62,240 nt of DNA from a virus (IMGVR_UViG_3300025120_000045:1-62240); one strand, 5' to 3'; positions 18,313-31,126 are shown, counted from the stretch's first letter. The notes: generated by a model from the letters alone, not told the origin. Numbers and translations are program-made.

Positions 18313-18522
18313 ATGGATAAATTTATAGCAAATTTAGATAGATTGAGAATATTTCCAAGATTATTCATAAGTGTATATATTTGGATGTTTTATGATGTGG
18401 TGCAATGGTTTATGATGTTAGAAGCACCTACAAATCAACAAGCTGGTTTAGTATCAATTATAGTTGGTGCTGGTGCAGCATGGTTTGGTTTATATGTTAG
18501 AACTTCAGGGAAAGACAAATAA
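18313..18522 (+). CDS. Small two-TM membrane protein (holin-like)
   Basis: 69 aa, two hydrophobic segments, basic C-terminus. Confidence 0.55.
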   Translation: MDKFIANLDRLRIFPRLFISVYIWMFYDVVQWFMMLEAPTNQQAGLVSIIVGAGAAWFGLYVRTSGKDK

Positions 18523-19583
18523 TGGCTAAACAAACAATAGGTATAGGAACAAGTGCTAATGACGGAACTGGTGATAGTGTCAGGGCCGGTGGTGATAAAG
18601 TAAACGATAACTTTACAGAAGTTTATAATGCATTAGGAAATGGAACAACAATTGCTGCAAATACAGGAACATTAGTTTCCAATGCTTATGCAGTCGCAAC
18701 ATATGCTGCAAATACTGCATTAACAGCAAAATTTAATACATTTGCCTTAGTTGCAAATGTTGCTGCATTAGCAGCATTAGCAAATACAAATAGTGCAATT
18801 GCAAAAAGAGCTGAAGTTGCAAACGTAGTAACCCTCGCAGCATTAGCAAATACAAATTTATCTATTGCAACAAAAGCTGCAGTAGCAAACGTAGCTGGTT
18901 TAGCAGCATTAGGAAATACAAATTCAAGAATTACATTATTGAACACAAATCTTACAGGTACAAATACAGCAATAAGAACACTTACACTTGATAGAGCTCA
19001 AGTTGCAAATGTAGCTGGACTTGCTGCATTAGCAAATACAAATTCAGGAGTAGCATTACTTAATACAAATCTAATAGCTACTAACACAGCAATAAGACTA
19101 TTAGTTAGTGATAGATCTCAAGTTGCAAATGTGTTCTCAATATTCAGTAGTGGTAAAAGTTATTCAACAGTACCAAATTATGGTGCAGCAGTAACATATG
19201 ATATATCTGCAAATGGATCTAATGCTTATATTGTTTCTAATATGGGTTTTGGTAAAGGAGGTGCAGCTTTTAATAATCCTGAATTGACTGTAAGAAATGA
19301 AACAACTATTGCATTTGACTTAAATGGTTTAGGTGGAGCTCATCCATTTGCTATAAGAAGTGGTGATTCTGGTTCAAGTGTTTTTTCAAATACGTTGATC
19401 CATGTTGCAACTTCTGGTACAATAACTACAGGAGCAAGTGCTCAAGGAAAAGTAGAAGGAGTTTTATATTGGCAAATACCACACGACATAGTTTCATCTG
19501 GGAGAAATTCATATACATATTATTGTCAAAGTCATGCAGCTATGAAAGGCAACGTTAATATCAAAGATACTGGAGCAATCTAA
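18522..19583 (+). CDS. gp9/gp10-like baseplate fibre with coiled-coil repeats and a C-terminal cupredoxin-like domain
   Basis: MAKQ.I.IG..ANDGTGD..R.GG.K.N.NF.EVY N-terminus; VANV..LAALANTN repeats; HPF...YYCQSHAAM. Confidence 0.75.
   Translation: MAKQTIGIGTSANDGTGDSVRAGGDKVNDNFTEVYNALGNGTTIAANTGTLVSNAYAVATYAANTALTAKFNTFALVANVAALAALANTNSAIAKRAEVANVVTLAALANTNLSIATKAAVANVAGLAALGNTNSRITLLNTNLTGTNTAIRTLTLDRAQVANVAGLAALANTNSGVALLNTNLIATNTAIRLLVSDRSQVANVFSIFSSGKSYSTVPNYGAAVTYDISANGSNAYIVSNMGFGKGGAAFNNPELTVRNETTIAFDLNGLGGAHPFAIRSGDSGSSVFSNTLIHVATSGTITTGASAQGKVEGVLYWQIPHDIVSSGRNSYTYYCQSHAAMKGNVNIKDTGAI
18750..19135 (+). repeat. Coding tandem repeats (two 22-aa units, then two 40-aa units)
   Basis: VANVxxLAALANTN recurs; the 40-aa unit matches the repeats at 48522-48900. 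Confidence 0.8.
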
Positions 19584-21124
19584 TGCCAGCTGTATCAACT
19601 AAGAGGCTGTCATATCATATAGCAGATCAATTTAAAGAATCATTTAGTGAAACTGATCCTTCAAGATTATATGTTTTTGTTGGAAGAAGTAGTCCATATG
19701 CAAATGATTCTTCTGCATCTACACCAACTGACACAGTACAAAAACAAGATTACAATATTTACAAACAAATGCTTGCTGCAAAAAAAGTTCAAGAGACTGA
19801 TGTAACTTATGCAATAAGAAGATACAATTGGGCAAACAATATTGGTTATACAGAGTATACAAATACCAATACTAATTTGTATACTAGTCAATTTTATGTT
19901 TATACTACAGATAATAATGTTTATAAATGCTTGTTTAATAATAAAGGTGCAAACTCAACAGTTATGCCAACAGGAACAAGTACAGGTTTACTACAAACAT
20001 CTGATGGATATCAATGGAAGTATATGTATTCTGTTAGTACAGCTGATATTGGTAAATATGTAACAGCTGACTATCTTCCTGTAAAAGTTGTAACAACAAA
20101 TGATAGTTCAGGACAGTTTACTGTTCAACAAGCTGCTGTTAATGGAGCTATTCAAGTCGTTGATGTAACAGCTGGTGGAGTTGGATATCAAACAACAAAT
20201 GGTGTATTTGGAACAGTTAGTAATTCAACAGTTATGACATTAGCATCAACTGCTAGTGCAAATGATGGTGTTTATATTGGAAGTACTTTATATATTTCAT
20301 CAGGCCTTGGTGCAGGATTAATAAGAGAAGTAACTTCATATACAGGATCATCAAAAAGTGTAACAGTTAACACTGCATTCTCAACATCACCAAATACAAC
20401 TTCTAGGTACATTGTAAGTCCAAAAGTAACTATTGCTGGAGATGGTACAGGAGCAACTGCATTTGCAAATGTTACAGATGGAGCAAGTTCAGTAAATTAT
20501 ATTACAATGATTAGTACAGGATCAAAATATAGTAATGCAACAATAACAATTTCAGCTAACACAACTTATGGTACAGGAGCAACTGCAGTACCATATATTT
20601 CACCAAGAAATGGACATGGATCCAATGCAAGAGAAGAATTAGGTGGAAGTTTTATAATGTTGGCTACAGAATTTAATGGAACAGAATCAAACACTATTTC
20701 AACTACAAATGATATAAGAACATTTGGATTAATTAGAGATCCACTCACATCTACAGGTGCTGTTGCAAATACAGGAAACTTTGATATGACAACAAGATTG
20801 ACATTGAGTGGTGCTACAGGAGACTTTACACAAGATGAATTAATTACAGGTGGTACAAGTGGAGCGACTGGTAATGTGGTTAGTTTTAGTAATACAAATT
20901 CAGCCAATTCAACAGGCACGCTTAGAGTGATAAATATAACGGGAAGGTTTCAGAACAATGAAGTTATTACTGGATCAGCTTCGAGTAAGACTGCAACGGT
21001 ACGACCAGCATCAAATTCGGACTTGAGTTTTTATAAAGGTGATGTATTATATACAGAAAATATATTACCAATTACAAGAGCAACAGATCAAATTGAGAAT
21101 TTTAAGATAATATTTAGTTTTTAG
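19583..21124 (+). CDS. gp8: Baseplate wedge gp8
   Basis: LYVFVGR..P, RRYNW, FYV.T..NVYKCL.NN, DGYQWKYMY, GHGSNA..ELG, I.R..DQ.E..KII..F. Confidence 0.9.
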   Translation: MPAVSTKRLSYHIADQFKESFSETDPSRLYVFVGRSSPYANDSSASTPTDTVQKQDYNIYKQMLAAKKVQETDVTYAIRRYNWANNIGYTEYTNTNTNLYTSQFYVYTTDNNVYKCLFNNKGANSTVMPTGTSTGLLQTSDGYQWKYMYSVSTADIGKYVTADYLPVKVVTTNDSSGQFTVQQAAVNGAIQVVDVTAGGVGYQTTNGVFGTVSNSTVMTLASTASANDGVYIGSTLYISSGLGAGLIREVTSYTGSSKSVTVNTAFSTSPNTTSRYIVSPKVTIAGDGTGATAFANVTDGASSVNYITMISTGSKYSNATITISANTTYGTGATAVPYISPRNGHGSNAREELGGSFIMLATEFNGTESNTISTTNDIRTFGLIRDPLTSTGAVANTGNFDMTTRLTLSGATGDFTQDELITGGTSGATGNVVSFSNTNSANSTGTLRVINITGRFQNNEVITGSASSKTATVRPASNSDLSFYKGDVLYTENILPITRATDQIENFKIIFSF

Positions 21125-21132
21125 GATAAATT

Positions 21133-24100
21133 ATGGCAGATATAAGTAACACAGTTTCGTATTCAACAGATCTAAATGTGGATCCGTATTATGATGATTA
21201 CAATGAAGAAAAGAATTTTCACCAAATACTTTTTAGACCTGGTCTAGCAGTTCAAGCTAGAGAGTTAACTCAACTACAAACAATACTACAAAAACAAACT
21301 TCAAGATTTGGAGCTCATATATTTAAAGAAGGTACTATTGTTTCTGGTGGATCTAAACAACTAAAAATTGGTATTCCTTTTGTAAAAATAACAGATAAAG
21401 ATAATGGTAATAATGCCTTAACTATGACAACATTAGTTGGTAGTACAGTTACCGGTGGTACAACAGGAGTTACAGCAGAAGTTATTGCTACAGTATCAGG
21501 TGTTCAAACTGCAGCTAATACAAACACGTTATATGTAAAGTATACAAATTCAGGTACAAATAAAACAACAAAAACATTTAGTGCTGGTGAAGTATTATCA
21601 TTCGTATATGCTAATACAGGAACAGCTAATGCAACAGTTGCTTCATCTGCAAATACACCAACAGGTAATGGTGTATTCTTCCAATTATCAGATGCTTTAG
21701 TATTTGCTAAAGGTCAATTTATTTTACATTCTAATTCTGGTATAGTAGTAGAAAGATATAATGAAACACCAAGTCAAAGAATTGGTTTCAAAGTAAATGA
21801 AAATATAATAACAAGTAATACAGATACAACATTATTAGATCCTGCTCAAGGTTCATATAACTATACAGCACCAGGTGCTAATAGATTAAAATTATCAACA
21901 GAATTAAATATATTACCATTATCAGTAACTGGTGATGCACCAGCATCTAATGGTTTCTTTGAATTATTAAATTTAGATAATGGATTAAGAGCTGAAGAAG
22001 CTAAACAACCAGATTATGCTGACCTTGGTCAAGAAATGGCAAGAAGAACATTCCAAGAGAGTGGTCATTATACAACAAAAGCATTTAAGTTTAATGTTAG
22101 AGAAAATTTAATTGATGGAACAAACTTAGGTTTAAAAACATCAGCTGCAGGCGGTGATGCTAATACATTATCAGTTGGTATAGAAGGTGGTCATGCTTTT
22201 GTAAAAGGTTTTGAATATGATTATGAGAATATAGATACAATTTATGTTGATGTTGCAAAAGGTACAAATACACAATTATACGAATCAATTTCTACTACAC
22301 CAAACTATGGACAATTTGTTTTAGCTAATGAAGTATCAGGTGTATTGGATCCAACTAATTTACCAGAGGTAAGTTTAAGAAATGCTGCTGCAAAATCACA
22401 CACAAATAAAACATTTGATAATACAGCATCTCCTGGATCTCAAATAGGTACAGCAAGATTAAGAATGATATCACAACATGCTGGTAATACAGATACAGCT
22501 GGTGGTCAATTTAAATTACATCTTGGAGAAATAAAATTAACTTCAGGTCAATTTGCAAATGTTAAATCATTTTATATTGCAAATGCAGTATCAGGAGCAA
22601 GTAAAAACTTCTTAGCTGATGCTGTATTAACAAGTGCTAATTCAACATTCCTTGGTAATGCAACATTAAATGAACCTACCAATGATTCATTGGTTTACAG
22701 TTTACCATTTAAAGGTGTTAAAACTATTAGAGATGATAGTAATAGTGTTGAAACATCATTTCAATTTAAAAAATCATTTGATATTACAATTGCTACAAAT
22801 GGTACAGCATCAATTGCAACAGGAGCATCTGATCATCAATTTACAACTACAGGAACACTAAGTGCTTCACAAAAAGATAGCTTAGTAACATTAGTTGCTA
22901 AAAATCAAGTAACAAGTACTCAATTAGGAACAGTTTTAGCTAATAGTACAACAACAACTGTTACAGGAACAGGAACAAAATTTAATTTATTAAAAGCTGG
23001 TGACAGAGTAAGATTAGGACCATCTAATATATTTACAGTTAATGCTGTAACAAGTAATGTTGCCATGTCTATTACAACAACTCCAACTGCAGCTCAAAAT
23101 GTTGCAAGTGGTAATGCTATATCTAAAGTTATTGAAAGTGGTCAACTAGTTGATTTATCAATGACAGGTACAGGTGGCAATGGAGCTGACAGAACATTTA
23201 CTATTAGTTCAACAACAGCTGCTGCATTAGATATTAAAGAAACTCTTAATACAACTTTAGCTGCAACAGCAATTGTAACTTTAAATAAAGTGAATGCAAG
23301 AGAAGCTGCTAAATCATTATCTGCAAATGTGTTTGTTAGAATTAATCCAAATACACATTTTAATAAAACTGGTAATGGACCATATCCATTAGGAGTAACA
23401 GATGCTGTTAGATTAAGAAAAGTTTATATGTCAACATCTAATGTTGTTGTAGCAAACACATCTGGAACAACAGATATTACATCAAGATACAAATTAGATA
23501 GTGGTATGAAGGCTGGTCGTTATGATATTGCTAGTATCATACTTAAAGCTGGTCAGACAGCTCCAACAGGACAGTTATTAGTTAATTTTGATCATTTCAA
23601 ACACAGTTCTTCATTGGGACAAGGTTATTTTAGTGTTGATAGTTATCCTGTAGATGATACAAAAGGTACAAATTCAATAACATCTATAAAAACATTTGAG
23701 ATTCCAATTTATACAAACCCATCAACTGGTGATGAATATAATTTAAGAAATAGTATTGATATTAGACCTAACAAAGCTAATACAGCTAATCCTACAACAA
23801 CCATTAGTTCGTCTCCAATAAATCCTGCTAACAGTTCTTCGTACACTGTTGCTGGTGATGGTCAGTTTTTACCAATAACTGGTCAGAATATATTGAAAGA
23901 CTTACAAATATATCTTGGTAGAACAGATAAGATTGTTGTTAATGAAGATGGAAGAATAGTAATAAAAACTGGTATATCAAGTGAAGCAAAAATTCCACCT
24001 ACTGTTGGATCAGATGAAATGACTCTTGCTGTATTAGATATTCCACCATATCCTTCAATATCTCCATTTGTTGCTAAAATTAATGAAAGAGAAGATCTTC

Positions 24101-26058
24101 AAGTAACTCTTACTCCAATGGATAATAGAAGATTTACTATGAGAGATATTGGTCAACTTGCTCAAAGAGTAACAAGATTAGAATATTATACTTCTTTATC
24201 AATGTTAGAAAAAGATTCACAATCATTACAAATATTAGATTCTGCTGGATTAGATAGATTTAAAAATGGTATCTTAGTAGATAACTTTACCGGTCATGGT
24301 GTTGGTGAAGTTGTCAATGAAGATTATAAAGCTGCTATTGATCCAGATAAAACAATTTTAAGACCATCTTTTAAAATTAATAATATTGATTATATTGCAA
24401 ATACTTCTGGTACTACAAATGTAATAAGAAGATCAAGAGACGTAATGATGAAAGTGTCAAACAGTCAATTAGCTGATGATATATCAATGTCATTTAATGA
24501 AACAGTAACGGGATCAACAAGTGGATCAACAGGAAGATTAAAATATATTACAGGTGCAAATACAGATATTATATTACTTGAAAATGAAACAGGATCAGGA
24601 TTTACAGCTGGAGAAACTGTAACTGGTTCAACATCTGGATTTACAGCTACGATATCAATTGTTAAGAGACCTAACGAAGGACCTCTTGCAACATTAGATT
24701 ACGATCAAAATGATCTAATAGTACAACCATTCGTATCAACAGAATTTAGAATTTCTAGTGCAGAGTTTAATGATTTTGTAGGTACAATTGAATTAACACC
24801 TGACTTTGATAATTGGGTAGATACAGAAACTAAACCTGATCTAGTAATTAATCACGAAGGTAATTATGATAATTGGCAAACATTAACAGATGCTTGGGGT
24901 ACTCAATGGGGTGATTGGAATACAATCGTAACAGGTAGTGTATCAAAAGATGAATTCTTATTAGAAGATTTAGGAAACTATTCAACTTCTACTCCATTAT
25001 CAGGTGGTAGAACACAAGTTAATACATACGATAATAAAAAGTTATTAGCTTATGAATCAGTAGAACAAAGAATGACAAGGACTGGTATTAAGATTAAAGC
25101 TACTCCTTATATTAACAAAGAATCAATTGGTGATAGAGTTGTTGATGTAAATGTAACACCTTATATTAGATCTAAGAATATTGAATTTACTGCAAGAGGA
25201 TTGAGACCAAGTACAAGAGTTTATGCATTCTTTGATAATGAAGATGTAACAACTTTCATTAAACCTTCTGGTGGAACTTTAGGTGGTAGCTTATTTACAG
25301 ATGCAGCTGGTACTGCAAGTGGTGAATTTAGAATACCAAATACAAGTACTCTTAAATTTAGAATTGGTGCTAAACCATTTGTATTAACAGATAGTAGTAC
25401 AAATTCAACAACAGACTTTACTACAATTGCAAGTGCAACATATCATGCACAAGGGTTGTCAACAATTCAACAAGAAACAATTCTTTCTACTAGAGAACCA
25501 ATCTTTAGTCAAGAAGAATTAACACAATCAAGAACAGAGTTCCAAGATGTTATGAGTTTCAAACATAAAAATGATCTTATTTCTTCTGTTGTTAATAGTC
25601 CTGCTCCTCCATGTCGTAGAGGTTGTAGAAGAGGTTGTTTCTTAGAAGGTACACCTGTAACAATGGAAGATGGTAGTATTAGACATATTCAAGATGTTGA
25701 ACTTGGAGATAGAGTATTAGAAGGTGGTATGGTTTATGCTGTAGCTAAATTCTTAATAAATGATCTTTATGATTATGAAGGTGTATTTGTTGCTGGATCT
25801 CATGCTGTAAAAGAAAACAACAAATGGGTTAGAGTAGAAGATAGTAAAAAAGGAATTAAACTTGACAATGGCGACCAGATAGTGTATACTTTAGGTAATG
25901 AGAATAAGAGAATTATGATAAACAATATTGAGTTTACTGATTACTTTGAAGTCGCAGAACAAGAAGAATTTTTTAATGAAGGTGAAGAGTATTTTGATAC
26001 TTGGACTGATAAAATACCAGCGTTTGAGAAAGAGAAGATAGACACTCTAAACGCTTAG
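21133..26058 (+). CDS. VrlC/DUF4815 large baseplate protein, N-terminal part, fused to a C-terminal Hint domain
   Basis: LNVDPYYDDY, LFRPG.AVQARELTQLQ, APGANRLK, ARRT..ESG.Y, RRFTMRDIG, LEYYTSLS.LE, RFKNG.LVDNF, L.P..D.W.D; ends G|CFLEGTPVTMEDGS (Hint). Confidence 0.9.
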   Translation: MADISNTVSYSTDLNVDPYYDDYNEEKNFHQILFRPGLAVQARELTQLQTILQKQTSRFGAHIFKEGTIVSGGSKQLKIGIPFVKITDKDNGNNALTMTTLVGSTVTGGTTGVTAEVIATVSGVQTAANTNTLYVKYTNSGTNKTTKTFSAGEVLSFVYANTGTANATVASSANTPTGNGVFFQLSDALVFAKGQFILHSNSGIVVERYNETPSQRIGFKVNENIITSNTDTTLLDPAQGSYNYTAPGANRLKLSTELNILPLSVTGDAPASNGFFELLNLDNGLRAEEAKQPDYADLGQEMARRTFQESGHYTTKAFKFNVRENLIDGTNLGLKTSAAGGDANTLSVGIEGGHAFVKGFEYDYENIDTIYVDVAKGTNTQLYESISTTPNYGQFVLANEVSGVLDPTNLPEVSLRNAAAKSHTNKTFDNTASPGSQIGTARLRMISQHAGNTDTAGGQFKLHLGEIKLTSGQFANVKSFYIANAVSGASKNFLADAVLTSANSTFLGNATLNEPTNDSLVYSLPFKGVKTIRDDSNSVETSFQFKKSFDITIATNGTASIATGASDHQFTTTGTLSASQKDSLVTLVAKNQVTSTQLGTVLANSTTTTVTGTGTKFNLLKAGDRVRLGPSNIFTVNAVTSNVAMSITTTPTAAQNVASGNAISKVIESGQLVDLSMTGTGGNGADRTFTISSTTAAALDIKETLNTTLAATAIVTLNKVNAREAAKSLSANVFVRINPNTHFNKTGNGPYPLGVTDAVRLRKVYMSTSNVVVANTSGTTDITSRYKLDSGMKAGRYDIASIILKAGQTAPTGQLLVNFDHFKHSSSLGQGYFSVDSYPVDDTKGTNSITSIKTFEIPIYTNPSTGDEYNLRNSIDIRPNKANTANPTTTISSSPINPANSSSYTVAGDGQFLPITGQNILKDLQIYLGRTDKIVVNEDGRIVIKTGISSEAKIPPTVGSDEMTLAVLDIPPYPSISPFVAKINEREDLQVTLTPMDNRRFTMRDIGQLAQRVTRLEYYTSLSMLEKDSQSLQILDSAGLDRFKNGILVDNFTGHGVGEVVNEDYKAAIDPDKTILRPSFKINNIDYIANTSGTTNVIRRSRDVMMKVSNSQLADDISMSFNETVTGSTSGSTGRLKYITGANTDIILLENETGSGFTAGETVTGSTSGFTATISIVKRPNEGPLATLDYDQNDLIVQPFVSTEFRISSAEFNDFVGTIELTPDFDNWVDTETKPDLVINHEGNYDNWQTLTDAWGTQWGDWNTIVTGSVSKDEFLLEDLGNYSTSTPLSGGRTQVNTYDNKKLLAYESVEQRMTRTGIKIKATPYINKESIGDRVVDVNVTPYIRSKNIEFTARGLRPSTRVYAFFDNEDVTTFIKPSGGTLGGSLFTDAAGTASGEFRIPNTSTLKFRIGAKPFVLTDSSTNSTTDFTTIASATYHAQGLSTIQQETILSTREPIFSQEELTQSRTEFQDVMSFKHKNDLISSVVNSPAPPCRRGCRRGCFLEGTPVTMEDGSIRHIQDVELGDRVLEGGMVYAVAKFLINDLYDYEGVFVAGSHAVKENNKWVRVEDSKKGIKLDNGDQIVYTLGNENKRIMINNIEFTDYFEVAEQEEFFNEGEEYFDTWTDKIPAFEKEKIDTLNA
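25636..25950 (+). other. Hint (Hedgehog/intein-like) autoprocessing domain
   Basis: Block A CFLEGTPVTMEDGS.R.IQDVELGDRV (Cys at residue 1502), block-B-like VAGSH, terminal VYTL....RIMINNIEFTDY without the His-Asn intein end. Confidence 0.8.
25862..25890 (+). promoter_or_regulatory. Sigma70 promoter embedded in the Hint coding sequence
   Basis: TTGACA-N17-TATACT, about 180 nt upstream of 26070. Confidence 0.65.
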
Positions 26059-26069
26059 GAGATTATATA

Positions 26070-26693
26070 ATGAACTATCAAAAAACGTGTTTTGAGATAT
26101 TTAAAACTCATTACAAATCTATAGCTGAAGAATATCAAAATCATAAAAACCCAACTTATTTAGATCAACATGATTTTTCTGATGGTGCCGATACATATGT
26201 TGAAGGTACATGGTATGCAGTGGGTATAAGTTCTGAAGATAGAAAAGTACAGGAAGAAAGTACTTATCCTATTTTATACTCTATATTAGATAAATTTCCA
26301 TACAAAATGAATTGTGCATTTATGGTTGTTAAACCAAATACTACTATTGGTAATCATAAAGATAGAGAAGGTGGTTGGAGATATCAGCTTACTATTGATG
26401 ATGGTGGTGGAGATAATAGTGGAATAAATTATACTTATGTAAATGAAGAAGGATGGCCTCAACAAGAAACTCATATATTTAAAAATGGTAACTCAGTAAT
26501 TATACAACCTGGTAAACAATTACACAACGGATGGAATAAAAATCCAAGAAAAAGAGTAACTTTATTACTTGACTTTTATGATGAAACAGTATACAATAAA
26601 AAAGACTTTATAAAGTATCGCAATAATTATAATGATGCTTTTAATAGTTCAGGGGATTTGTGTGACATATATGAAGGAAGAAAAGTTGGATAA
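26070..26693 (+). CDS. Aspartyl/asparaginyl beta-hydroxylase-like 2OG-Fe(II) oxygenase
   Basis: P.T.IG.HKD (HxD), R.QL, LHNGWN....RVTLLLDF, typical of the Asp_Arg_Hydrox family. Confidence 0.8.
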   Translation: MNYQKTCFEIFKTHYKSIAEEYQNHKNPTYLDQHDFSDGADTYVEGTWYAVGISSEDRKVQEESTYPILYSILDKFPYKMNCAFMVVKPNTTIGNHKDREGGWRYQLTIDDGGGDNSGINYTYVNEEGWPQQETHIFKNGNSVIIQPGKQLHNGWNKNPRKRVTLLLDFYDETVYNKKDFIKYRNNYNDAFNSSGDLCDIYEGRKVG

Positions 26694-27240
26694 GATATTA
26701 GTTATTGGACATACCAAAGGTATTGGTAAAGCTGTATATGATTATTATAATAAAAAAGGTCATACTGTAAAAGGATTAAGTAGATCAAATGGTTTTAATC
26801 TATGTGATCCAAAAAAGTTTTATAGACATATTTTTGCTTATGATTGGATTATATTAAATGCTTTTTATTATGACTCACAATATAAACTTCTTAAACATAT
26901 TGTGGACAAATATGAAAACAAAAAGAAAAAAATTATAGTTATAACAAGTACTTCTGGTACAGATATATGTTTTGATAAAACAATTGAAGCTGATAGTTAT
27001 AAGGAATATAGTAGACATAAAAGAAAACTTATAAAATATATTGAAAAGATTCAACAAAGATTAGTAGATAAACCACTACAAATATTTGATGTTTGTCCGG
27101 ATATTGTTGATACACAAATGAGTAAAGGTCTATGGGTTAATGCTAAAAAATTAAAACCTATAGAAGTTTCAAAGGCAGTACAGTTTTGTTTAGAAAGTAA
27201 ATTTAATGTTAATAGAATAGTAATACAAAAAAAATGCTAG
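26671..27240 (+). CDS. Short-chain dehydrogenase/reductase-like protein
   Basis: ILVIGHTKGIGKA Rossmann motif, ILNA, YSRHK (YxxxK), CPD.VDT. Start is probably 26671 or 26686 (track 26632). Confidence 0.8.
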   Translation: MKEEKLDKILVIGHTKGIGKAVYDYYNKKGHTVKGLSRSNGFNLCDPKKFYRHIFAYDWIILNAFYYDSQYKLLKHIVDKYENKKKKIIVITSTSGTDICFDKTIEADSYKEYSRHKRKLIKYIEKIQQRLVDKPLQIFDVCPDIVDTQMSKGLWVNAKKLKPIEVSKAVQFCLESKFNVNRIVIQKKC

Positions 27241-27701
27241 TCAGTGCTTGGAATTTAGATATAGATTATGACACATTAGTTGATTGGTGGCAGCAACATG
27301 ATTTTGGACAAGTACCAAAAGAATGCTTACCTCCTATTGGTGTTATGGTTACACATAATGATAAACCAATATGTGCTGGAGGCTTATATGTTTGTGATGG
27401 AACGAAGTTTGCTTTTATGGAGTGGATTGTAGCTGATCCAAAAGCTCCTCCTAAGTTAACTCATAAATGTATTAAGTTGTTAATTGATGAATTAATTAGT
27501 AAAGCCAAAGATGGAGGATGTTTACTACTTTATACAGTTACAGAAAATCCAGGATTACATAAAAGGTATGTTAAGTATCATGGATTATCACAAGGTGAGA
27601 AACATGCTAGAACATTTATAAAAGATTTAACAGATGGTAGTTACGGACCATTGTTATGGGCTAAAAGCCAAGAAGTGCTTGACGAAGAACCCAAGAATTA
27701 G
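27234..27701 (+). CDS. GNAT-fold putative acyltransferase
   Basis: DY..L..WW, LP..G, PICAGGLY, MEWIVADP, LI..AK..G..LLYT..N.GL..RY pattern of phage GNAT-like proteins. Confidence 0.6.
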   Translation: MLVSAWNLDIDYDTLVDWWQQHDFGQVPKECLPPIGVMVTHNDKPICAGGLYVCDGTKFAFMEWIVADPKAPPKLTHKCIKLLIDELISKAKDGGCLLLYTVTENPGLHKRYVKYHGLSQGEKHARTFIKDLTDGSYGPLLWAKSQEVLDEEPKN

Positions 27702-27709
27702 TATAAATA
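27702..27709 (+). promoter_or_regulatory. T4-type late promoter for the C-terminal half of VrlC
   Basis: TATAAATA; also TTGACG (27679)-N17-TATAAA. Confidence 0.7.
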
Positions 27710-27730
27710 GATTAGAGAAAAGGTAAAAAC

Positions 27731-29281
27731 ATGGCATTAAAGAATTTAGCTCAGTCTTTCAGAGTTCAAAACAGACCTGGTGGTGTATTTGTAACAAAAG
27801 TAGATTTGTACTTTTCAAAAAAAGATGCATTACTTCCAGTAACAGTTTCAATAAGAGAGATGAAATTAGGTGTACCTACAAAAAGAGTAGTACCATTTTC
27901 ATCAATAACAAAGTTTCCATCAGATACTGCAGCATCAAATGATGATTTTGTAAGAGTACAAACAAGTACAGATGGATCCAAAGCATCTACATTTCATTTT
28001 AAATCACCAGTATATTTAAAGAATGATACTGATTATGCACTAGTAGTAACACCAGGTGGTAATTCAAAAAATTATAGTGTATGGACAGCTAAACTTGGTG
28101 ACTTTGATAAAGGTACAACTAATATTATTAGTGAACAACCATTAGTAGGTACATTATTTTTATCTGCAGATGGAACAACATTTACAGAATCACAAGATAT
28201 AGATTTAAGATTTACAATGTATTGTGCTAACTTTGAATCTACAGGAACATTAGTTCAAGAGAATGAAAAGTTTGATGATCTTACTATAGCACCAATATCA
28301 GGGGGAACATTTAAAACTGGTGAGTTAGTTTTTGGTAATACAACCAGTGGTCATGCTTTTGCTAATACAAAAGGTAGTGGTGTTGTAAAATCTTATGTTG
28401 CAAATACTGTTACAAAGTTAGTATTAGGAAATAGATTAAATTCAGCATATACTGTTGGTATGAAAGTTAATGGTCAAGAATCAAATGCAGTAGGTACAAT
28501 CACAGCTATTAATGATTACTTAGTAGATACTGTTCATTATAACTTTGGTGTTATTAATCTTGGAGATACTGATTTGAGTTCTTCATTAAAAGCAACATCT
28601 AATAATAATGTTCAAGATAGTTCGTTTGGAACAAAGATAGAATTAAACAGAGACATTGATATGATTAATGTTAAAAAAGTTATGAGTTATAGTAATGAGA
28701 TTGCAAACCTTTCTGGTAAAAAATCAAGTCTATTACAAACAACTATGACAACAAGAAATGCAAACATATCTCCAGCAATTGATATTGAGAAATCAACTGC
28801 ATATTTAATTAATAACTTGATCAATAATACTTCAACTAATGAAACAAATGCTAGTGGTGGAGATGCGGAAGCAAGATATATTACAAGAAGAGTTACACTT
28901 GCAGATAATCAAAATGCAGAAGATTTATTAGTTTTTTTGACTGCATATAAACCATCAGAAACAACTATTAATGTTTATTACAAAATATTAAATAGTGCTG
29001 ACTCAGAAGACTTTGATGATAAGAGTTATGTTGAAATGACTCAAGTAACTAACACAGGTACAAATTCCGTAACAAACAATTTAAGTGATTTTATTGAATA
29101 TAAGTATCAAATTCCATCAGCCAATATGACTGGAATTAGTAATGCTGTTGCATATACAAGTGGTCTAGGAGCAACATTTTCTGGATTCAATGTGTTTGCA
29201 ATTAAGATAGTTATGCTTAGTACTACTGATGTTGTAGTACCACAGATAAGAGATCTTAGAGCAATTGCATTGCAAGTATAA
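27731..29281 (+). CDS. VrlC/DUF4815 baseplate protein, C-terminal part
   Basis: Starts LAQSFRV....GVFVTKVDLYF..KD; F.SPVYL, SPAID, A.YITR.V.L, F.IKIVM......P.IRDLRAIAL are motifs normally at the C-terminus of the single VrlC-like protein. Confidence 0.85.
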   Translation: MALKNLAQSFRVQNRPGGVFVTKVDLYFSKKDALLPVTVSIREMKLGVPTKRVVPFSSITKFPSDTAASNDDFVRVQTSTDGSKASTFHFKSPVYLKNDTDYALVVTPGGNSKNYSVWTAKLGDFDKGTTNIISEQPLVGTLFLSADGTTFTESQDIDLRFTMYCANFESTGTLVQENEKFDDLTIAPISGGTFKTGELVFGNTTSGHAFANTKGSGVVKSYVANTVTKLVLGNRLNSAYTVGMKVNGQESNAVGTITAINDYLVDTVHYNFGVINLGDTDLSSSLKATSNNNVQDSSFGTKIELNRDIDMINVKKVMSYSNEIANLSGKKSSLLQTTMTTRNANISPAIDIEKSTAYLINNLINNTSTNETNASGGDAEARYITRRVTLADNQNAEDLLVFLTAYKPSETTINVYYKILNSADSEDFDDKSYVEMTQVTNTGTNSVTNNLSDFIEYKYQIPSANMTGISNAVAYTSGLGATFSGFNVFAIKIVMLSTTDVVVPQIRDLRAIALQV

Positions 29282-29502: not shown

Positions 29503-30111
29503 ATGTCGTTTAAAAATTTGTTTAGTGTTCCCATCTTTCATGGGAAAGTTGATAATTATAAAAAATATAATAGGGATCTTCTTCCCGCTTGTCAAGAAAT
29601 TCGAAAAGAAACAGAAGATATGACTGACCTGCCATGGAATTGTAATGTGTGGTCAACATATGCTTATGATGCTCAAGTATTTAAAAGACCTCAATTCCAT
29701 GAGATAGCAAAAGTTATTGGAATGTATGTTAGAGAGTATATTGATAAAAGAAAATGGAAACATGAGTCAAAAATATTAATGACAGAGATGTGGGTCAATT
29801 ATCAAGACAAGTATCAGTATCAAGAGTATCACGATCATAGGGAGAGAATAGTGTCAGGAATCTATTATATCGACGTACCTGAGGGTACCCCAGGAATAAT
29901 GATGCAGACTCCCCTAAAAGCTAATTTTGATGATTTAATGTTTGATGAAGAGTCTTGTCAAGAAGTTAATCATCTTGATATACAGACAGGAGATATTTTA
30001 TTATTTCCAAGTTGGTTAAATCATGGAGTAAAAGCTAACTTAACAGATAAACCAAGAATCAATGTAGCGTTTAATTTTGGATCACCGGAGTGGGTAAATG
30101 TCTTTGGTTGA
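29503..30111 (+). CDS. 2OG-Fe(II) oxygenase (TIGR02466-like)
   Basis: LFSVPI, MWVN, QEYHDH, SGIYY, LLFPSWL.HGV, RINVAFN. Confidence 0.88.
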   Translation: MSFKNLFSVPIFHGKVDNYKKYNRDLLPACQEIRKETEDMTDLPWNCNVWSTYAYDAQVFKRPQFHEIAKVIGMYVREYIDKRKWKHESKILMTEMWVNYQDKYQYQEYHDHRERIVSGIYYIDVPEGTPGIMMQTPLKANFDDLMFDEESCQEVNHLDIQTGDILLFPSWLNHGVKANLTDKPRINVAFNFGSPEWVNVFG

Positions 30112-30616
30112 TGTTTATGATGACTTAATCACAAAAGATTTATTATTAGAATTAGAACAATATGTGTCAGGTTTTACTTATTCAAGATTTGAAACAGATA
30201 ATGAAGAATATGACTTTAAAACTAACACACATGACTTTGATCATAAAGACCCATTATTAATAAAATGTCAACAATTATTTTGGAATAAACTTAAAAATAA
30301 TGTTGACATTATCTTAACAAGGTTGTATTGTAATAAAATATTAGCTGGAGATAGTCCCACATCTCATTATGATGGAAAATATGATGTTGACACAACTGTT
30401 CTTGTATATGTCAATAGTGAATGGGATCATAATGAAGGTGGTGAAACTTTATTCTATAATAAGGATAAAGAAGTTGTGCAAGCGGTAGTTCCAAAACCAG
30501 GAAGAGTTGCAATATTTCCAGCTAATATACTACATAGTGCAAGACCACCATTGCCATATGTTACTAAACCAAGATATACGGTGGCTTATAAGTATGAATA
30601 TGGACTTCTTGTATAA
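30098..30616 (+). CDS. 2OG-Fe(II) oxygenase (prolyl-hydroxylase-like)
   Basis: HYD, T.LVYVN.EW...GGET.F, PKPGR..IF...ILH.A, RYT.AYK. Confidence 0.88.
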   Translation: MSLVDVYDDLITKDLLLELEQYVSGFTYSRFETDNEEYDFKTNTHDFDHKDPLLIKCQQLFWNKLKNNVDIILTRLYCNKILAGDSPTSHYDGKYDVDTTVLVYVNSEWDHNEGGETLFYNKDKEVVQAVVPKPGRVAIFPANILHSARPPLPYVTKPRYTVAYKYEYGLLV

Positions 30617-30649: not shown

Positions 30650-31126
30650 ATGACAGCAATAGCAAATGTAGCTCTAAGTGATACATTCAATACTCAAAGA
30701 GTAAAATTGAATAGAGCAGTAGTTAGATTAAACAACTTCGCTCAAAACGAAAGTCAGATAGCTGCAAATACTTTATTTGCAAATGTTGCATTTACTGGTC
30801 CTAGTATTTCAAGCACAGTTAACCTAAATACTATCAGTGGAAGAACTTCAACAGTAAGTGCAAATCTTAATGTTGGTGGTTCGTTCAGTAATATAACTTG
30901 TGCTAATACAAACATTAAGGGTAAAATACTTTTAGTAACTAGCAATAGTAATATAACTTGTGCTAATACAAACATTAAGGGTAAATCACTTTTAGTAACT
31001 AGCAATAGTTATTTTACTGGAACATTAGAAATAAATGGTTTAACAGCTACTACATCAAATACTGTAGCAGGTGCAATAACTGAAGTAAGCGATAACACAA
31101 TAGCATTTTCAATAGCATTAGGATAG
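30650..31126 (+). CDS. Fibre-associated structural protein
   Basis: N-terminal V..SDTF...R.K.N; C-terminal AFSIALG, shared with the 47037 protein. Confidence 0.65.
   Translation: MTAIANVALSDTFNTQRVKLNRAVVRLNNFAQNESQIAANTLFANVAFTGPSISSTVNLNTISGRTSTVSANLNVGGSFSNITCANTNIKGKILLVTSNSNITCANTNIKGKSLLVTSNSYFTGTLEINGLTATTSNTVAGAITEVSDNTIAFSIALG
30887..31009 (+). repeat. 60-bp in-frame tandem duplication
   Basis: Two copies encoding SNITCANTNIKGK(I/S)LLVTSN that differ at 2 nt. Confidence 0.9.

What the first reader, a model, noticed from the sequence alone, without database searches (positions are those of the whole stretch)
21133..29281. Split VrlC/DUF4815 baseplate gene: Hint-terminated N-half, three-enzyme insert, separately promoted C-half
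Seen: the 1641-aa protein stops where the LAQSF motif would be expected and runs instead into PAPPCRRGCRRG|CF-Hint. Hydroxylase, SDR and GNAT-like genes follow, then a TATAAATA promoter and an ORF starting MALKNLAQSF that carries the remaining VrlC motifs. Established: T4-like VrlC homologues usually carry both parts in one polypeptide. Hedgehog-type Hint domains cleave at G|C through a thioester and transfer the N-fragment to a nucleophile. This Hint lacks the His-Asn intein end and has a ~36-aa acidic/aromatic tail where Hedgehog has its sterol-recognition region. Inference: an autoprocessing system that attaches a small molecule, lipid or partner protein to a virion protein, with the inserted enzymes making or tailoring the adduct.
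Basis: partly seen in the sequence, partly recalled or inferred. Interest (0 to 1): 0.85.

Follow-up and report, generated by a model that had tools for sequence, protein, structure and literature searches.

The report
Split baseplate gene with Hint–GNAT cassette
A phage baseplate gene is cut in two by a conserved cassette: a self-cleaving Hint domain fused to the first half plus a dedicated GNAT-fold partner gene, a pairing found in hundreds of uncultured marine-type phages and apparently undescribed.

Summary
VrlC/DUF4815 is split a few residues before the conserved (D)PLAQSF motif. The N-half (1501 aa) runs in frame into a 140-aa Hint domain starting Cys1502-Phe. Three enzyme genes follow, then a TATAAATA motif and the 516-aa C-half.

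The Hint fold is confirmed (AF2 pLDDT 94; Z 12.3 to Tetrahymena BIL2). Thr-Asp sits where inteins have His-Asn, and a 38-aa helix follows.

The new result is the linkage. This Hint subtype is the last domain of many unrelated phage proteins, and a 155-aa GNAT-fold gene follows it wherever downstream DNA exists (75 of 80 Hint-seeded loci, the other 5 truncated; 79 of 80 GNAT-seeded loci). The hydroxylase subtype was found only inside this cassette (46 of 46 loci), but many cassettes lack hydroxylase and SDR, including two distant split-VrlC lineages.

Best reading: a two-component Hint–GNAT module for C-terminal processing. A thioester at Gly1501|Cys1502 releases the VrlC N-part, and the GNAT-fold protein is the dedicated co-factor. 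Neither cleavage nor an adduct is shown. I found no published description. It is a new variant of a known kind and could be a new conjugation system.

The parts
21133..25635 (+). VrlC/DUF4815 baseplate protein, N-part (aa 1-1501). It ends in the linker ...SPAPPCRRGCRRG.
   Evidence: Pfam PF16075 at 143 bits. PHROG 358 profile positions 4-1241. BLASTP to the unsplit HTVC008M and Melnitz VrlC. Follows a gp8-like wedge gene, as in those phages.
25636..25941 (+). Hint (Hedgehog/intein) core, aa 1502-1603. Cys1502-Phe is at its start, His1557 is the conserved His, and Thr1602-Asp1603 sit where inteins have His-Asn.
   Evidence: AF2 pLDDT 93.9. Foldseek top hits are all Hint domains. VIA Z 12.3, rmsd 1.9 over 107 residues to BIL2 6y75; model residues 1-102 span whole inteins. 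Conserved columns in A1. 129 of 130 distinct domains start Cys-Phe.
25942..26058 (+). 38-aa acidic and aromatic C-terminal helix of the Hint ORF (aa 1604-1641, ending ...IDTLNA), plus the stop codon.
   Evidence: Predicted helix at domain residues 106-139, pLDDT 86-90. Conserved across the family. [LIVMF]-Asn lies near the C-end in 120 of 130 domains, against a shuffled mean of 68 and maximum of 80.
26070..26693 (+). Asp/Asn beta-hydroxylase-family 2OG oxygenase. Accessory gene of the cassette.
   Evidence: Pfam PF05118 at 38.2 bits against a cut-off of 22.6. 45 of 46 hydroxylase-seeded loci have the Hint upstream; the 46th has only 169 nt upstream.
26632..27240 (+). Short SDR-like oxidoreductase. 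The likely start is Met14, at nt 26671. Accessory gene of the cassette.
   Evidence: adh_short at 25.5 bits against a cut-off of 26.6. NCBIfam SDR models to E 9e-9. Lies between hydroxylase and GNAT in 33 of the 80 Hint-seeded loci.
27234..27701 (+). 155-aa GNAT-fold protein (PHROG 17252), the constant partner gene of this Hint subtype.
   Evidence: AF2 pLDDT 92.9 with GNAT topology. 295 PDB matches at E<=1e-3, the listed ones nearly all GNAT-family acyltransferases. Present in 75 of 80 Hint-seeded loci. 79 of 80 GNAT-seeded loci carry the Hint upstream.
27702..27709 (+). TATAAATA, a T4-type late-promoter-like motif 21 nt upstream of the C-half start codon.
   Evidence: Conserved in L046/L086, L085 and L087. 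8 of the 10 + strand copies in the window lie wholly in non-coding DNA.
27731..29281 (+). VrlC/DUF4815 C-part (516 aa), starting MALKN-LAQSF.
   Evidence: PHROG 358 from profile position 1424. BLASTP residues 6-516 match HTVC008M 1479-2001. tblastn finds VrlC genes in 1016 phage records.

Best explanation
The VrlC baseplate gene is interrupted at a flexible linker just before its (D)PLAQSF motif by a conserved, phage-borne cassette.

The first element of the cassette is fused in frame to the N-half. It is a Hint domain that can only work on its N-terminal junction: it has Cys1 and a conserved His, Thr-Asp in place of His-Asn, and no C-extein nucleophile. A 38-aa helix follows it. The last element is a small GNAT-fold protein that accompanies this Hint subtype whatever cargo protein carries it. 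A 2OG hydroxylase and a short SDR are optional inserts between the two.

Most likely mechanism:
1. Cys1502 attacks the Gly1501 carbonyl (N-S acyl shift).
2. The resulting thioester is resolved so that the 1501-aa VrlC N-part leaves the Hint.
3. The GNAT-fold protein is the dedicated co-factor of that step. It either docks on the Hint or its helix and steers the acyl group to an acceptor, or it triggers or times the cleavage.
4. The C-part is made separately from its own late promoter, and the two parts assemble in the baseplate.

Shown: the split, the Hint fold, the conserved residues, the GNAT fold and the gene linkage. Inferred: cleavage itself, any role of the GNAT-fold protein in it, and the fate of the acyl group.
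For: - The split maps to the same point in unsplit homologues.
- Hint fold: AF2 pLDDT 93.9. Best structural matches are BIL2, inteins, C. thermocellum BIL, Vint and Hedgehog.
- Model residues 1-102 cover entire inteins, so Asp at domain position 102 occupies the terminal-Asn position.
- 129 of 130 distinct complete domains start Cys-Phe. His56 is invariant in 27 sequences.
- The family is large: 1736 representative clusters at E<=1e-3 and 401 confirmed viral contigs.
- The domain is the last one in 32 of 32 fetched proteins, whose cargos are unrelated. Examples are tail lysozyme plus LysM, glycine-rich proteins and VrlC.
- Linkage: the GNAT-fold gene lies downstream in 75 of 80 Hint-seeded loci. 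The 5 without it have at most 698 nt of DNA after the Hint ORF.
- The Hint lies upstream in 79 of 80 GNAT-seeded loci. The exception has only 168 nt upstream.
- In many loci the Hint stop and the GNAT start overlap or lie within about 15 nt.
- A distant short-tail Hint subfamily still has a GNAT-like gene downstream in 62 of 70 loci.
- Pairwise Hint and GNAT identities correlate, r = 0.72. Relatedness of the loci inflates this value.
- Split VrlC carrying Hint plus GNAT occurs in two lineages whose VrlC is only 26-31% identical to the window's.
- Precedent for a Hint thioester being passed to an amine: BIL2 of the Tetrahymena BUBL locus, the top structural hit (PMC8616854, section 2.4, passages read).
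Against: - No experiment or read data bear on cleavage.
- Distant GNAT-fold partners do not keep Cys47 or Tyr112 of the close subfamily, and no Q/RxxGxG/A acetyl-CoA loop is visible. The partner may therefore not be an enzyme.
- GNAT-family relatives in cultured Cellulophaga and Flavobacterium phages (31-36% identity) exist. In the one I checked (phi13:2) it follows a structural gene that has no Hint. The fold family is thus not tied to Hint everywhere.
- Five distant Hint loci with at least 2.7 kb of downstream DNA lack a detectable GNAT.
- L120 splits VrlC at the same site with another Hint type (TNHPF...AVHNQ) and no partner gene. A partner is therefore not needed for a Hint-terminated VrlC half as such.
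Confidence: 0.55

Rival explanations
1. Hedgehog-like adduct. The Hint thioester is attacked by a small molecule or lipid that the hydroxylase and SDR make or tailor. The GNAT-fold protein catalyses the attachment to the C-terminal Gly of the virion protein.
For: - The helix sits where Hedgehog has its sterol-recognition region.
- The G|CF junction resembles that of Hedgehog (the Hedgehog motif is recalled, not from a call).
- This hydroxylase subtype was found only inside the cassette, in 46 of 46 loci within the limits of contig ends.
- The accessory set varies between cassettes, as tailoring enzymes do: Hyd+SDR, Hyd+SDR+Hyd2 and Hyd+Hyd2.
- GNAT-like enzymes that take acyl groups from protein-tethered thioesters exist, for example LuxI-type and N-acyl-amino-acid synthases (recalled, not from a call).
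Against: - 42 of the 80 Hint-seeded loci and the split-VrlC loci L089 and L090 have no hydroxylase or SDR. These enzymes cannot make an essential adduct.
- No catalytic residue is conserved across all GNAT-fold partners.
- No acceptor is identified.
Confidence: 0.15
2. Protein-protein conjugation (BUBL-like). The thioester is passed to a lysine or the N-terminal amine of another virion protein. The acceptor could be the VrlC C-half or a receptor-binding protein encoded downstream. This would re-join or cross-link parts made from separate genes.
For: - The top structural match, BIL2, does exactly this without ATP (PMC8616854, section 2.4, passages read).
- Three different Hint arrangements end the VrlC N-half at the same linker. 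This suggests Hint chemistry is wanted there, rather than a plain stop codon.
- The cargo C-termini are flexible Gly- or Arg-rich tails.
- VrlC sits next to the hypervariable host-recognition cluster (PMC7029224, passages read).
Against: - The C-half has no C-intein and no N-terminal Cys. It starts M-A-L-K.
- Most cargos are not obviously halves of split genes.
- No conserved acceptor motif was seen at the start of the downstream genes, beyond the common 'MA'.
Confidence: 0.12
3. Self-removing assembly cap. The Hint plus its helix acts as a temporary C-terminal oligomerisation or solubility module, like the self-cleaving C-terminal chaperone domains of tailspikes. It is cut off by hydrolysis after assembly. 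The GNAT-fold protein is a non-catalytic release factor, as PanZ/PanM is for PanD self-cleavage.
For: - Hydrophobic and aromatic residues in the tail are spaced 3-4 residues apart, as in coiled coils (read directly from the sequence; not scored by a program).
- Some cargos end in hydrophobic glycine-zipper-like stretches directly before the Hint.
- No universal catalytic residue and no acetyl-CoA loop are found in the partner.
- A PanZ-PanD complex (4crz) appears among the GNAT fold matches.
- The PanM precedent: only the abstract of PMC3398536 was seen, in a search listing.
Against: - It does not explain the cassette-specific hydroxylase and SDR.
- The cargos are very diverse and not all fibrous.
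Confidence: 0.2
4. Decayed intein or selfish remnant. The Hint is a dead leftover of an intein or mobile insertion that happened to split VrlC. The three enzyme genes are unrelated auxiliary genes parked in the gap.
For: - Inteins and free-standing endonuclease genes do fracture phage genes (recalled, not from a call).
- 2OG oxygenases are common in this window. Two more lie at 29503-30616.
- The closely related unsplit locus L105 has only a poly-Gly linker at the site, while L094 has a Hint there.
Against: - The catalytic Cys-Phe is kept in 129 of 130 domains, and the His and Asp are conserved.
- The domain is fused to many unrelated cargos and is always the last domain.
- Linkage to the GNAT-fold gene is strict in both directions.
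- None of the inserted genes looks like a homing endonuclease.
- No Rfam family, and hence no intron, and no flanking repeats.
- The break is not at a C/S/T +1 site: LAQSF stays with the C-half.
Confidence: 0.05

Closest known systems
Bacterial intein-like (BIL) domains, especially B-type, and BIL2 of the Tetrahymena BUBL locus
   Same: Hint fold, with BIL2 as the best structural match (Z 12.3) and C. thermocellum BIL at Z 11.5. N-terminal Cys. Sits in variable, non-conserved proteins rather than in conserved enzyme motifs. No canonical splicing. B-type BILs lack the C-terminal intein motif and cleave their N-terminal junction (PMC7765530, passages read).
   Different: Only block A is similar in sequence. 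This domain is always the last in the protein and carries a conserved helical tail. It is phage-restricted as far as I searched: one genome-contig scan found none. It has an obligate GNAT-fold neighbour, which was not mentioned in the BIL passages I read (PMC7765530, PMC8616854).
Hedgehog C-terminal autoprocessing (Hog) domain
   Same: A C-terminal Hint that releases the N-terminal cargo through a thioester at G|CF. An extra C-terminal segment follows the Hint core, the sterol-recognition region in Hedgehog and the helix here. Model residues 1-104 align with Hedgehog 258-402 (Z 10.7-10.9).
   Different: No sequence similarity to the sterol-recognition region was tested or seen. The candidate nucleophile-handling part here is a separate protein. 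The system is in phages, not eukaryotes.
Split inteins and 'fractured genes'
   Same: A gene broken in two, with a Hint-type domain at the end of the first half and other genes in between.
   Different: No C-intein on the second half, which starts with its own Met 5 aa before LAQSF. No terminal Asn or +1 nucleophile. The intervening genes are enzymes, not a homing endonuclease.
PanZ/PanM-PanD
   Same: A small GNAT-fold protein as partner of a protein that cleaves itself through an N-to-O/S acyl shift (abstract of PMC3398536 seen in the listing; 4crz among the fold hits).
   Different: PanD is not a Hint domain. PanZ binds acetyl-CoA, whereas no acetyl-CoA loop motif is visible here.
Self-cleaving C-terminal intramolecular chaperone domains of phage tailspikes and fibres (peptidase S74; recalled)
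   Same: A C-terminal domain of a virion protein that is expected to remove itself.
   Different: A different fold and chemistry: a Ser-Lys dyad there, a Hint thioester here. No partner gene.

Membership tests
Hint (Hedgehog/intein) superfamily | Hint beta-fold | tested here: met
   AF2 pLDDT 93.9. Foldseek top hits are all Hint domains. In VIA, 69 of 1000 chains reach Z>=8 and the 50 rows shown are all Hint-type; the best is Z 12.3, rmsd 1.9 over 107 aligned residues.
Hint (Hedgehog/intein) superfamily | Nucleophilic Cys/Ser as the first residue | tested here: met
   Cys1502. 129 of 130 distinct complete domains start Cys-Phe.
Hint (Hedgehog/intein) superfamily | Block B Thr-x-x-His | tested here: inconclusive
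   His56 of the domain (His1557) is invariant in A1, within V-(S/A)-G-(S/T)-H. I could not obtain a residue-level superposition to show that it is the block B His.
Intein (protein splicing) | C-terminal (His-)Asn followed by a Cys/Ser/Thr on a C-extein | tested here: not met
   Thr-Asp sits at the structural position of the intein end. A 38-aa tail and a stop codon follow. The conserved near-terminal Asn is followed mostly by Ala.
Split intein | C-intein piece at the start of the second half | tested here: not met
   The C-half starts MALKN-LAQSF. Only 29 nt (27702-27730) separate the GNAT stop from its ATG, and the two ORFs are in different frames.
Hedgehog Hog domain | Sterol-recognition region and cholesterol-activating Asp | not testable with these tools
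   A helix occupies the same topological place. No residue-level mapping or ligand test was possible.
BIL domains (A/B types) | Type-specific sequence motifs | not testable with these tools
   No BIL profile is in the libraries I could search. Only fold similarity is available.
GNAT superfamily (the 155-aa protein) | GNAT fold | tested here: met
   AF2 pLDDT 92.9 with b1-a1-b2-b3-b4-a3-b5-a4-b6 topology. 295 PDB matches at E<=1e-3.
GNAT superfamily (the 155-aa protein) | Pfam model above threshold and the acetyl-CoA loop Q/RxxGxG/A | tested here: not met
   Acetyltransf_1 scores 13.9 bits against a cut-off of 20.7, and 4 of 26 members match at E<=1. No such loop motif is seen in the alignment (read by eye; the motif itself is recalled).
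VrlC / DUF4815 | Pfam PF16075 above threshold, and both parts map to one family profile | tested here: met
   143.2 bits against a cut-off of 30. PHROG 358: the N-half maps to positions 4-1241 and the C-half from position 1424.
Asp/Asn beta-hydroxylase family | Pfam PF05118 above threshold | tested here: met
   38.2 bits against a cut-off of 22.6, covering profile positions 2-155 of 157. Iron ligands were not checked.
Short-chain dehydrogenase/reductase | Pfam adh_short above threshold; glycine-rich NAD(P) motif and YxxxK | tested here: inconclusive
   25.5 bits against a cut-off of 26.6. NCBIfam SDR models reach E 9e-9 but lie far below their cut-offs. GHTKGIG and YSRHK are visible in the sequence.
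T4-type late promoter | TATAAATA upstream of a late gene | tested here: met
   Motif at 27702. Positional enrichment and conservation in relatives. Function is not testable here.

The most novel reading that the evidence does not exclude
Phages carry an ATP-independent system for conjugating a protein by its C-terminus. The terminal Hint domain acts as a built-in thioester carrier for whatever virion protein precedes it. A dedicated GNAT-fold protein acts as the transferase, passing the protein's C-terminal carboxyl to an amine. The acceptor could be a lysine or N-terminus of another virion protein, a lipid or a cell-wall amine. Hydroxylase and SDR act as optional tailoring enzymes. In split VrlC this would covalently couple a conserved baseplate anchor to separately encoded, exchangeable parts.
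Probability: 0.25. Interest if true: 0.95.

Novelty: new variant of a known kind. Interest (0 to 1): 0.8.

Why it matters
Hint domains are the chemistry behind inteins and Hedgehog lipidation. A large, phage-wide family is described here: 1736 representative clusters and at least 401 viral contigs. In it a terminal Hint is genetically locked to a GNAT-fold partner. That makes it a ready-made two-component system that can be tested in E. coli with two plasmids.

If the partner only triggers cleavage, this is a new way of timing virion protein maturation. If it transfers the thioester, it would be a new kind of protein ligase or lipidation system, of interest for protein engineering as an alternative to intein or sortase ligation.

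The system also bears on how marine T4-like phages build and diversify their two-layer baseplates. It shows that a core baseplate gene can be carried as two separately expressed halves.

Tried and rejected
- Hint in cultured phages: tblastn of the Hint against 50,697 GenBank phage records found no match. blastn of the region found none either.
- Single-protein scan of viral contigs: nothing found. An alignment was needed.
- Cellular genomes: one scan of 185,579 species genomes with two Hint patterns found no relative.
- Sequence search of PDB: only block A matches PI-SceI or BIL2.
- Complex prediction of Hint plus the GNAT-fold protein gave no verdict.
- Longer proteins fused to the GNAT-fold protein: none scored (weak evidence). 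The protein atlas gave only viral 'hypothetical protein' clusters.
- Independent insertion of the cassette into VrlC in the two split lineages: suggested by the Hint tree. The AU test on the GNAT tree did not reject a single origin (p = 0.10), so I make no claim.
- The 107-aa ORF after the Hint in L245-type loci as a mini-GNAT: hhalign E 0.12, not significant.
- In-frame intein in a full-length VrlC: none among the 22 proteins returned. L094 may be one, but its contig ends.
- Intron or mobile-element signatures: no Rfam family in the window and no meaningful flanking repeats.
- Hydroxylase and SDR against PDB sequences: nothing useful.
- Literature: six searches found no paper that links a Hint domain with a GNAT gene in phages. 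Supplementary files were not consulted.

Full report
**What is in the window**

The window is a 62-kb fragment of an uncultured virus record, estimated 33% complete. Its GC content is about 32% and its structural genes are T4-like.
- a gp8-like wedge gene (19583-21124; Pfam Phage-Gp8, PHROG 438);
- a 1641-aa ORF (21133-26058);
- three short ORFs (26070-26693, 26632-27240, 27234-27701);
- a 516-aa ORF (27731-29281) starting MALKNLAQSF.

**The split is real and clean**

The 1641-aa protein scores 143 bits on Pfam DUF4815. It matches positions 4-1241 of PHROG 358, a profile 2056 positions long. The 516-aa protein matches the same profile from position 1424 onwards.

In Pelagibacter phage HTVC008M and Methylophilales phage Melnitz the homologue is one gene, of 2001 and 2127 aa. 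It lies directly after the gp8-like wedge gene. BLASTP aligns N-half residues 1183-1469 with HTVC008M 1181-1457, and C-half residues 6-516 with HTVC008M 1479-2001. The break therefore falls in the short variable linker just before the conserved DPLAQ(S/T)F motif.

I examined VrlC loci from viral contigs. By my script 51 were unsplit and 7 split, the 7 coming from 6 distinct contigs. Five of the 8 undetermined loci also read straight through the motif. This sample was partly chosen with a Hint pattern, so split forms are over-represented.

The literature places VrlC in the baseplate. The Listeria phage A511 homologue was immunolocalised there. In pelagimyophages and cyanomyophages VrlC appears to substitute for T4 gp7, and it borders the hypervariable host-recognition cluster (PMC4621102 and PMC7029224, passages read).

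**The C-terminal domain of the N-half is a Hint domain**

Pfam sees only the first 28 residues (Hom_end_hint, below threshold). PDB sequence searches likewise see only block A.

I built an alignment of 27 family members and modelled the domain with AlphaFold2, which gave pLDDT 93.9. The model has a beta core at residues 1-101 and one long helix at 106-139. Foldseek's best hits are all Hint domains: BIL2 of the Tetrahymena BUBL1 locus, a class 3 split intein, Vint, Hedgehog, the gp41-1 intein and the C. thermocellum BIL.

The second-look aligner gives Z 12.3 to BIL2 (rmsd 1.9 over 107 residues). It gives Z 9-12 to dozens of inteins and to Hedgehog. In these alignments model residues 1-102 span the inteins from their first to their last residue. 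So Thr1602-Asp1603 sit where inteins have His-Asn, and the 38-aa tail sits where a C-extein, or Hedgehog's sterol-recognition region, would be.

The tail is 38 aa rather than about 36. One further feature needs adding: a hydrophobic residue followed by Asn is conserved close to the C-terminus. It occurs in 120 of 130 distinct domains, against a mean of 68 and a maximum of 80 in shuffled tails. It is followed mostly by Ala. I cannot explain this feature.

**The family is large, and the domain is always terminal**

A full HMMER scan of 1.84 billion representative proteins found 1736 clusters at E<=1e-3 and 102 at E<=1e-30. In all 32 proteins I fetched from the top of that list the domain is the last one. 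It ends 0-25 residues before the C-terminus, behind cargos of 60 to 1670 residues that are unrelated to each other.

The cargos include four more VrlC N-halves (P0079, P0097, P0106, P0108). Others are a tail lysozyme with LysM, glycine-rich proteins and low-complexity proteins. Some carry a second Hint of a different type in tandem just upstream.

In 130 distinct complete domains from viral contigs, 129 begin Cys-Phe. The residue before the Cys is usually Gly but varies.

I found no member in 50,697 cultured-phage records. One pattern scan of 185,579 prokaryotic species genomes also found none.

**The main new result: linkage to a GNAT-fold gene**

I seeded a viral-contig scan with the Hint alignment. 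It confirmed 401 contigs, of which the best 80 were kept. A homologue of the window's 155-aa protein lies downstream in 75 of these 80. The other five have only 60-698 nt of DNA after the Hint ORF.

In 42 of the 80 loci the gene follows the Hint ORF directly, with overlapping or nearly abutting stop and start codons. In the others the order is always Hint, hydroxylase, SDR, GNAT. Hydroxylase is present in 36 loci and SDR in 33.

Only 2 of the 80 loci are VrlC loci, so the pairing does not depend on the cargo.

Seeding with the 155-aa protein instead gave the Hint upstream in 79 of 80 loci. The exception has only 168 nt upstream.

Seeding with a distant Hint subfamily that has a short tail still gave a GNAT-like gene (22-31% identity) directly downstream in most new loci. 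The count is 62 of 70 loci. Three of the others are truncated, and five have at least 2.7 kb downstream and no detectable GNAT.

Seeding with the hydroxylase gave 46 loci, all inside this cassette. The Hint is upstream in 45, and the 46th has only 169 nt upstream. All four genes are present in 42.

That criterion is not met. However, the dependence runs one way. Hydroxylase and SDR need the Hint-GNAT pair, while the pair often occurs without them.

**What the 155-aa protein is**

It has no Pfam hit above threshold (Acetyltransf_1, 13.9 bits). It belongs to PHROG 17252, of unknown function.

Its AlphaFold2 model (pLDDT 92.9) has the GNAT topology. It matches 295 PDB chains at E<=1e-3, and the listed matches are nearly all GNAT-family acyltransferases.

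Within the close subfamily several residues are invariant: Cys47, Tyr112, Lys114 and Glu122. The distant Hint-linked members keep neither Cys47 nor Tyr112. I also see no Q/RxxGxG/A acetyl-CoA loop (alignment read by eye).

Relatives at 31-36% identity occur in cultured Cellulophaga and Flavobacterium phages. In the one I checked, Cellulophaga phage phi13:2, the gene directly follows a structural gene that has no Hint.

The fold is therefore certain. Enzymatic activity is not.

**Variation among split VrlC loci**

- Close relatives of the window (VrlC 71-74% identical) carry one of three arrangements between the halves: Hint|Hyd|SDR|GNAT, the same with a second hydroxylase paralogue, or Hyd plus the paralogue without SDR.
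- Two distant loci, L089 and L090 (VrlC 26-31% identical), carry Hint|GNAT only. Their C-half starts 3 nt after the GNAT stop.
- L120 splits VrlC at the same linker with a different Hint type (TNHPF...AVHNQ plus a short acidic tail). It has no gene at all in the 79-nt gap.
- L094 has that second Hint type at the same linker, but its contig ends there. Its close relative L105 has a poly-Gly linker at the site instead.
- L145 and L146 have an unsplit VrlC and carry the Hint-GNAT pair on another protein about 5 kb downstream.

On the Hint tree the two split-VrlC groups are separate. The distant one is sister to L145/L146. On the GNAT tree the AU test does not reject a single VrlC clade (p = 0.10). 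I therefore do not claim independent insertions.

**Expression signals**

TATAAATA is no more frequent in the window than chance (12 copies against 12.6 expected). However, 8 of the 10 + strand copies lie wholly in the 6% of the window that is non-coding. The copy 21 nt before the C-half ATG is conserved in the close relatives, and it is absent where the C-half abuts the GNAT gene. 'Separately promoted' is therefore plausible for this clade.

**Mechanism**

What follows is inference from established Hint chemistry. Cys1502 should form a thioester with Gly1501. With Thr-Asp at the C-terminal position, no +1 nucleophile and no C-intein on the C-half, splicing is excluded. The thioester must then be resolved by water, a thiol or another nucleophile, releasing a 1501-aa VrlC N-part.

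The strict two-way linkage and the tight gene coupling argue that the GNAT-fold protein takes part in that step. Two kinds of precedent exist.
- BIL2 hands its N-extein to a lysine without ATP (PMC8616854, section 2.4, passages read). Hedgehog hands its N-extein to cholesterol.
- PanZ/PanM is a GNAT-fold protein that merely triggers the self-cleavage of PanD (abstract of PMC3398536, seen in a search listing; 4crz is among the fold hits).

The lack of a universally conserved catalytic residue leans towards a binding or trigger role. The cassette-specific hydroxylase and SDR lean towards chemistry on a product. I cannot decide between these with the tools at hand. A complex prediction gave no verdict.

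**Novelty**

My searches found reviews of BIL domains, the BUBL work and Hint domains in polymorphic toxins. They found nothing on a terminal phage Hint family linked to a GNAT-fold gene, and nothing on a Hint-split VrlC. Those searches cover open-access papers and bioRxiv only, and I did not see supplements.

I rate this a new variant of a known kind, namely Hint autoprocessing domains of BIL or Hog style. There is a realistic chance that it is a new conjugation system.

Noticed in passing
L120:1721-8578: A third way of splitting VrlC at the same linker. The N-half (1684 aa) ends in a different Hint type (CFAGNT...TNHPF...AVHNQ plus a short acidic tail). A 79-nt gap follows, with no inserted gene, and the C-half starts MSNEPLAQSF.
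   Followed up: partly
P0002-P0009, P0110, P0131; L077, L078, L083: Many cargo proteins carry two or three Hint domains in tandem. An upstream type ending ...VVHNKG is followed directly by the Cys-Phe of the terminal type. P0110 has three in a row.
   Followed up: no
P0112, P0117, P0122, P0128, P0136, P0137: Very Asn/Ile/Lys-rich proteins, most with predicted N-terminal membrane segments, carry two tandem copies of a related Hint core. Their source organisms are unknown and they look unlike the phage cargos.
   Followed up: no
window 25636-26055 versus L085, L087: The window's Hint is only 51% identical to the Hints of its closest relatives, although the neighbouring GNAT (71-72%) and VrlC (73-74%) are much closer. 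Its tail looks like the podovirus-type tails. This suggests domain replacement by recombination.
   Followed up: partly
window 25591-25635 and relatives: The linker before the Hint carries a conserved PPxCRRG motif, duplicated as CRRGCRRG in the window. It puts extra cysteines 4 and 8 residues before the scissile bond. It is also present in P0079 and P0097.
   Followed up: no
L046:9795-10529, L087: Some close relatives carry a second, 32-33% identical hydroxylase paralogue between SDR and GNAT. One relative has it in place of the SDR.
   Followed up: partly
window 29503-30616: Two further 2OG-Fe(II) oxygenase genes lie directly after the small 72-aa gene that follows the VrlC C-half (Pfam 2OG-FeII_Oxy_5 and 2OG-FeII_Oxy_3).
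   Followed up: no
window 18522-19583 and 30650-31126: Structural-region proteins with internal tandem repeats: (V)ANVAGLAALANTNS-type repeats in the 353-aa protein, and NITCANTNIKGKxLLVTSNS repeated in the 158-aa protein.
   Followed up: no
L019, L036, L041 and similar loci: In one podovirus-like group the Hint-bearing protein lies directly after the portal gene and ends in a hydrophobic glycine-zipper-like stretch (GVIGGVIGGVVG|CF). The GNAT gene and a conserved 180-aa gene starting MAID... follow, with overlapping stop and start codons.
   Followed up: partly
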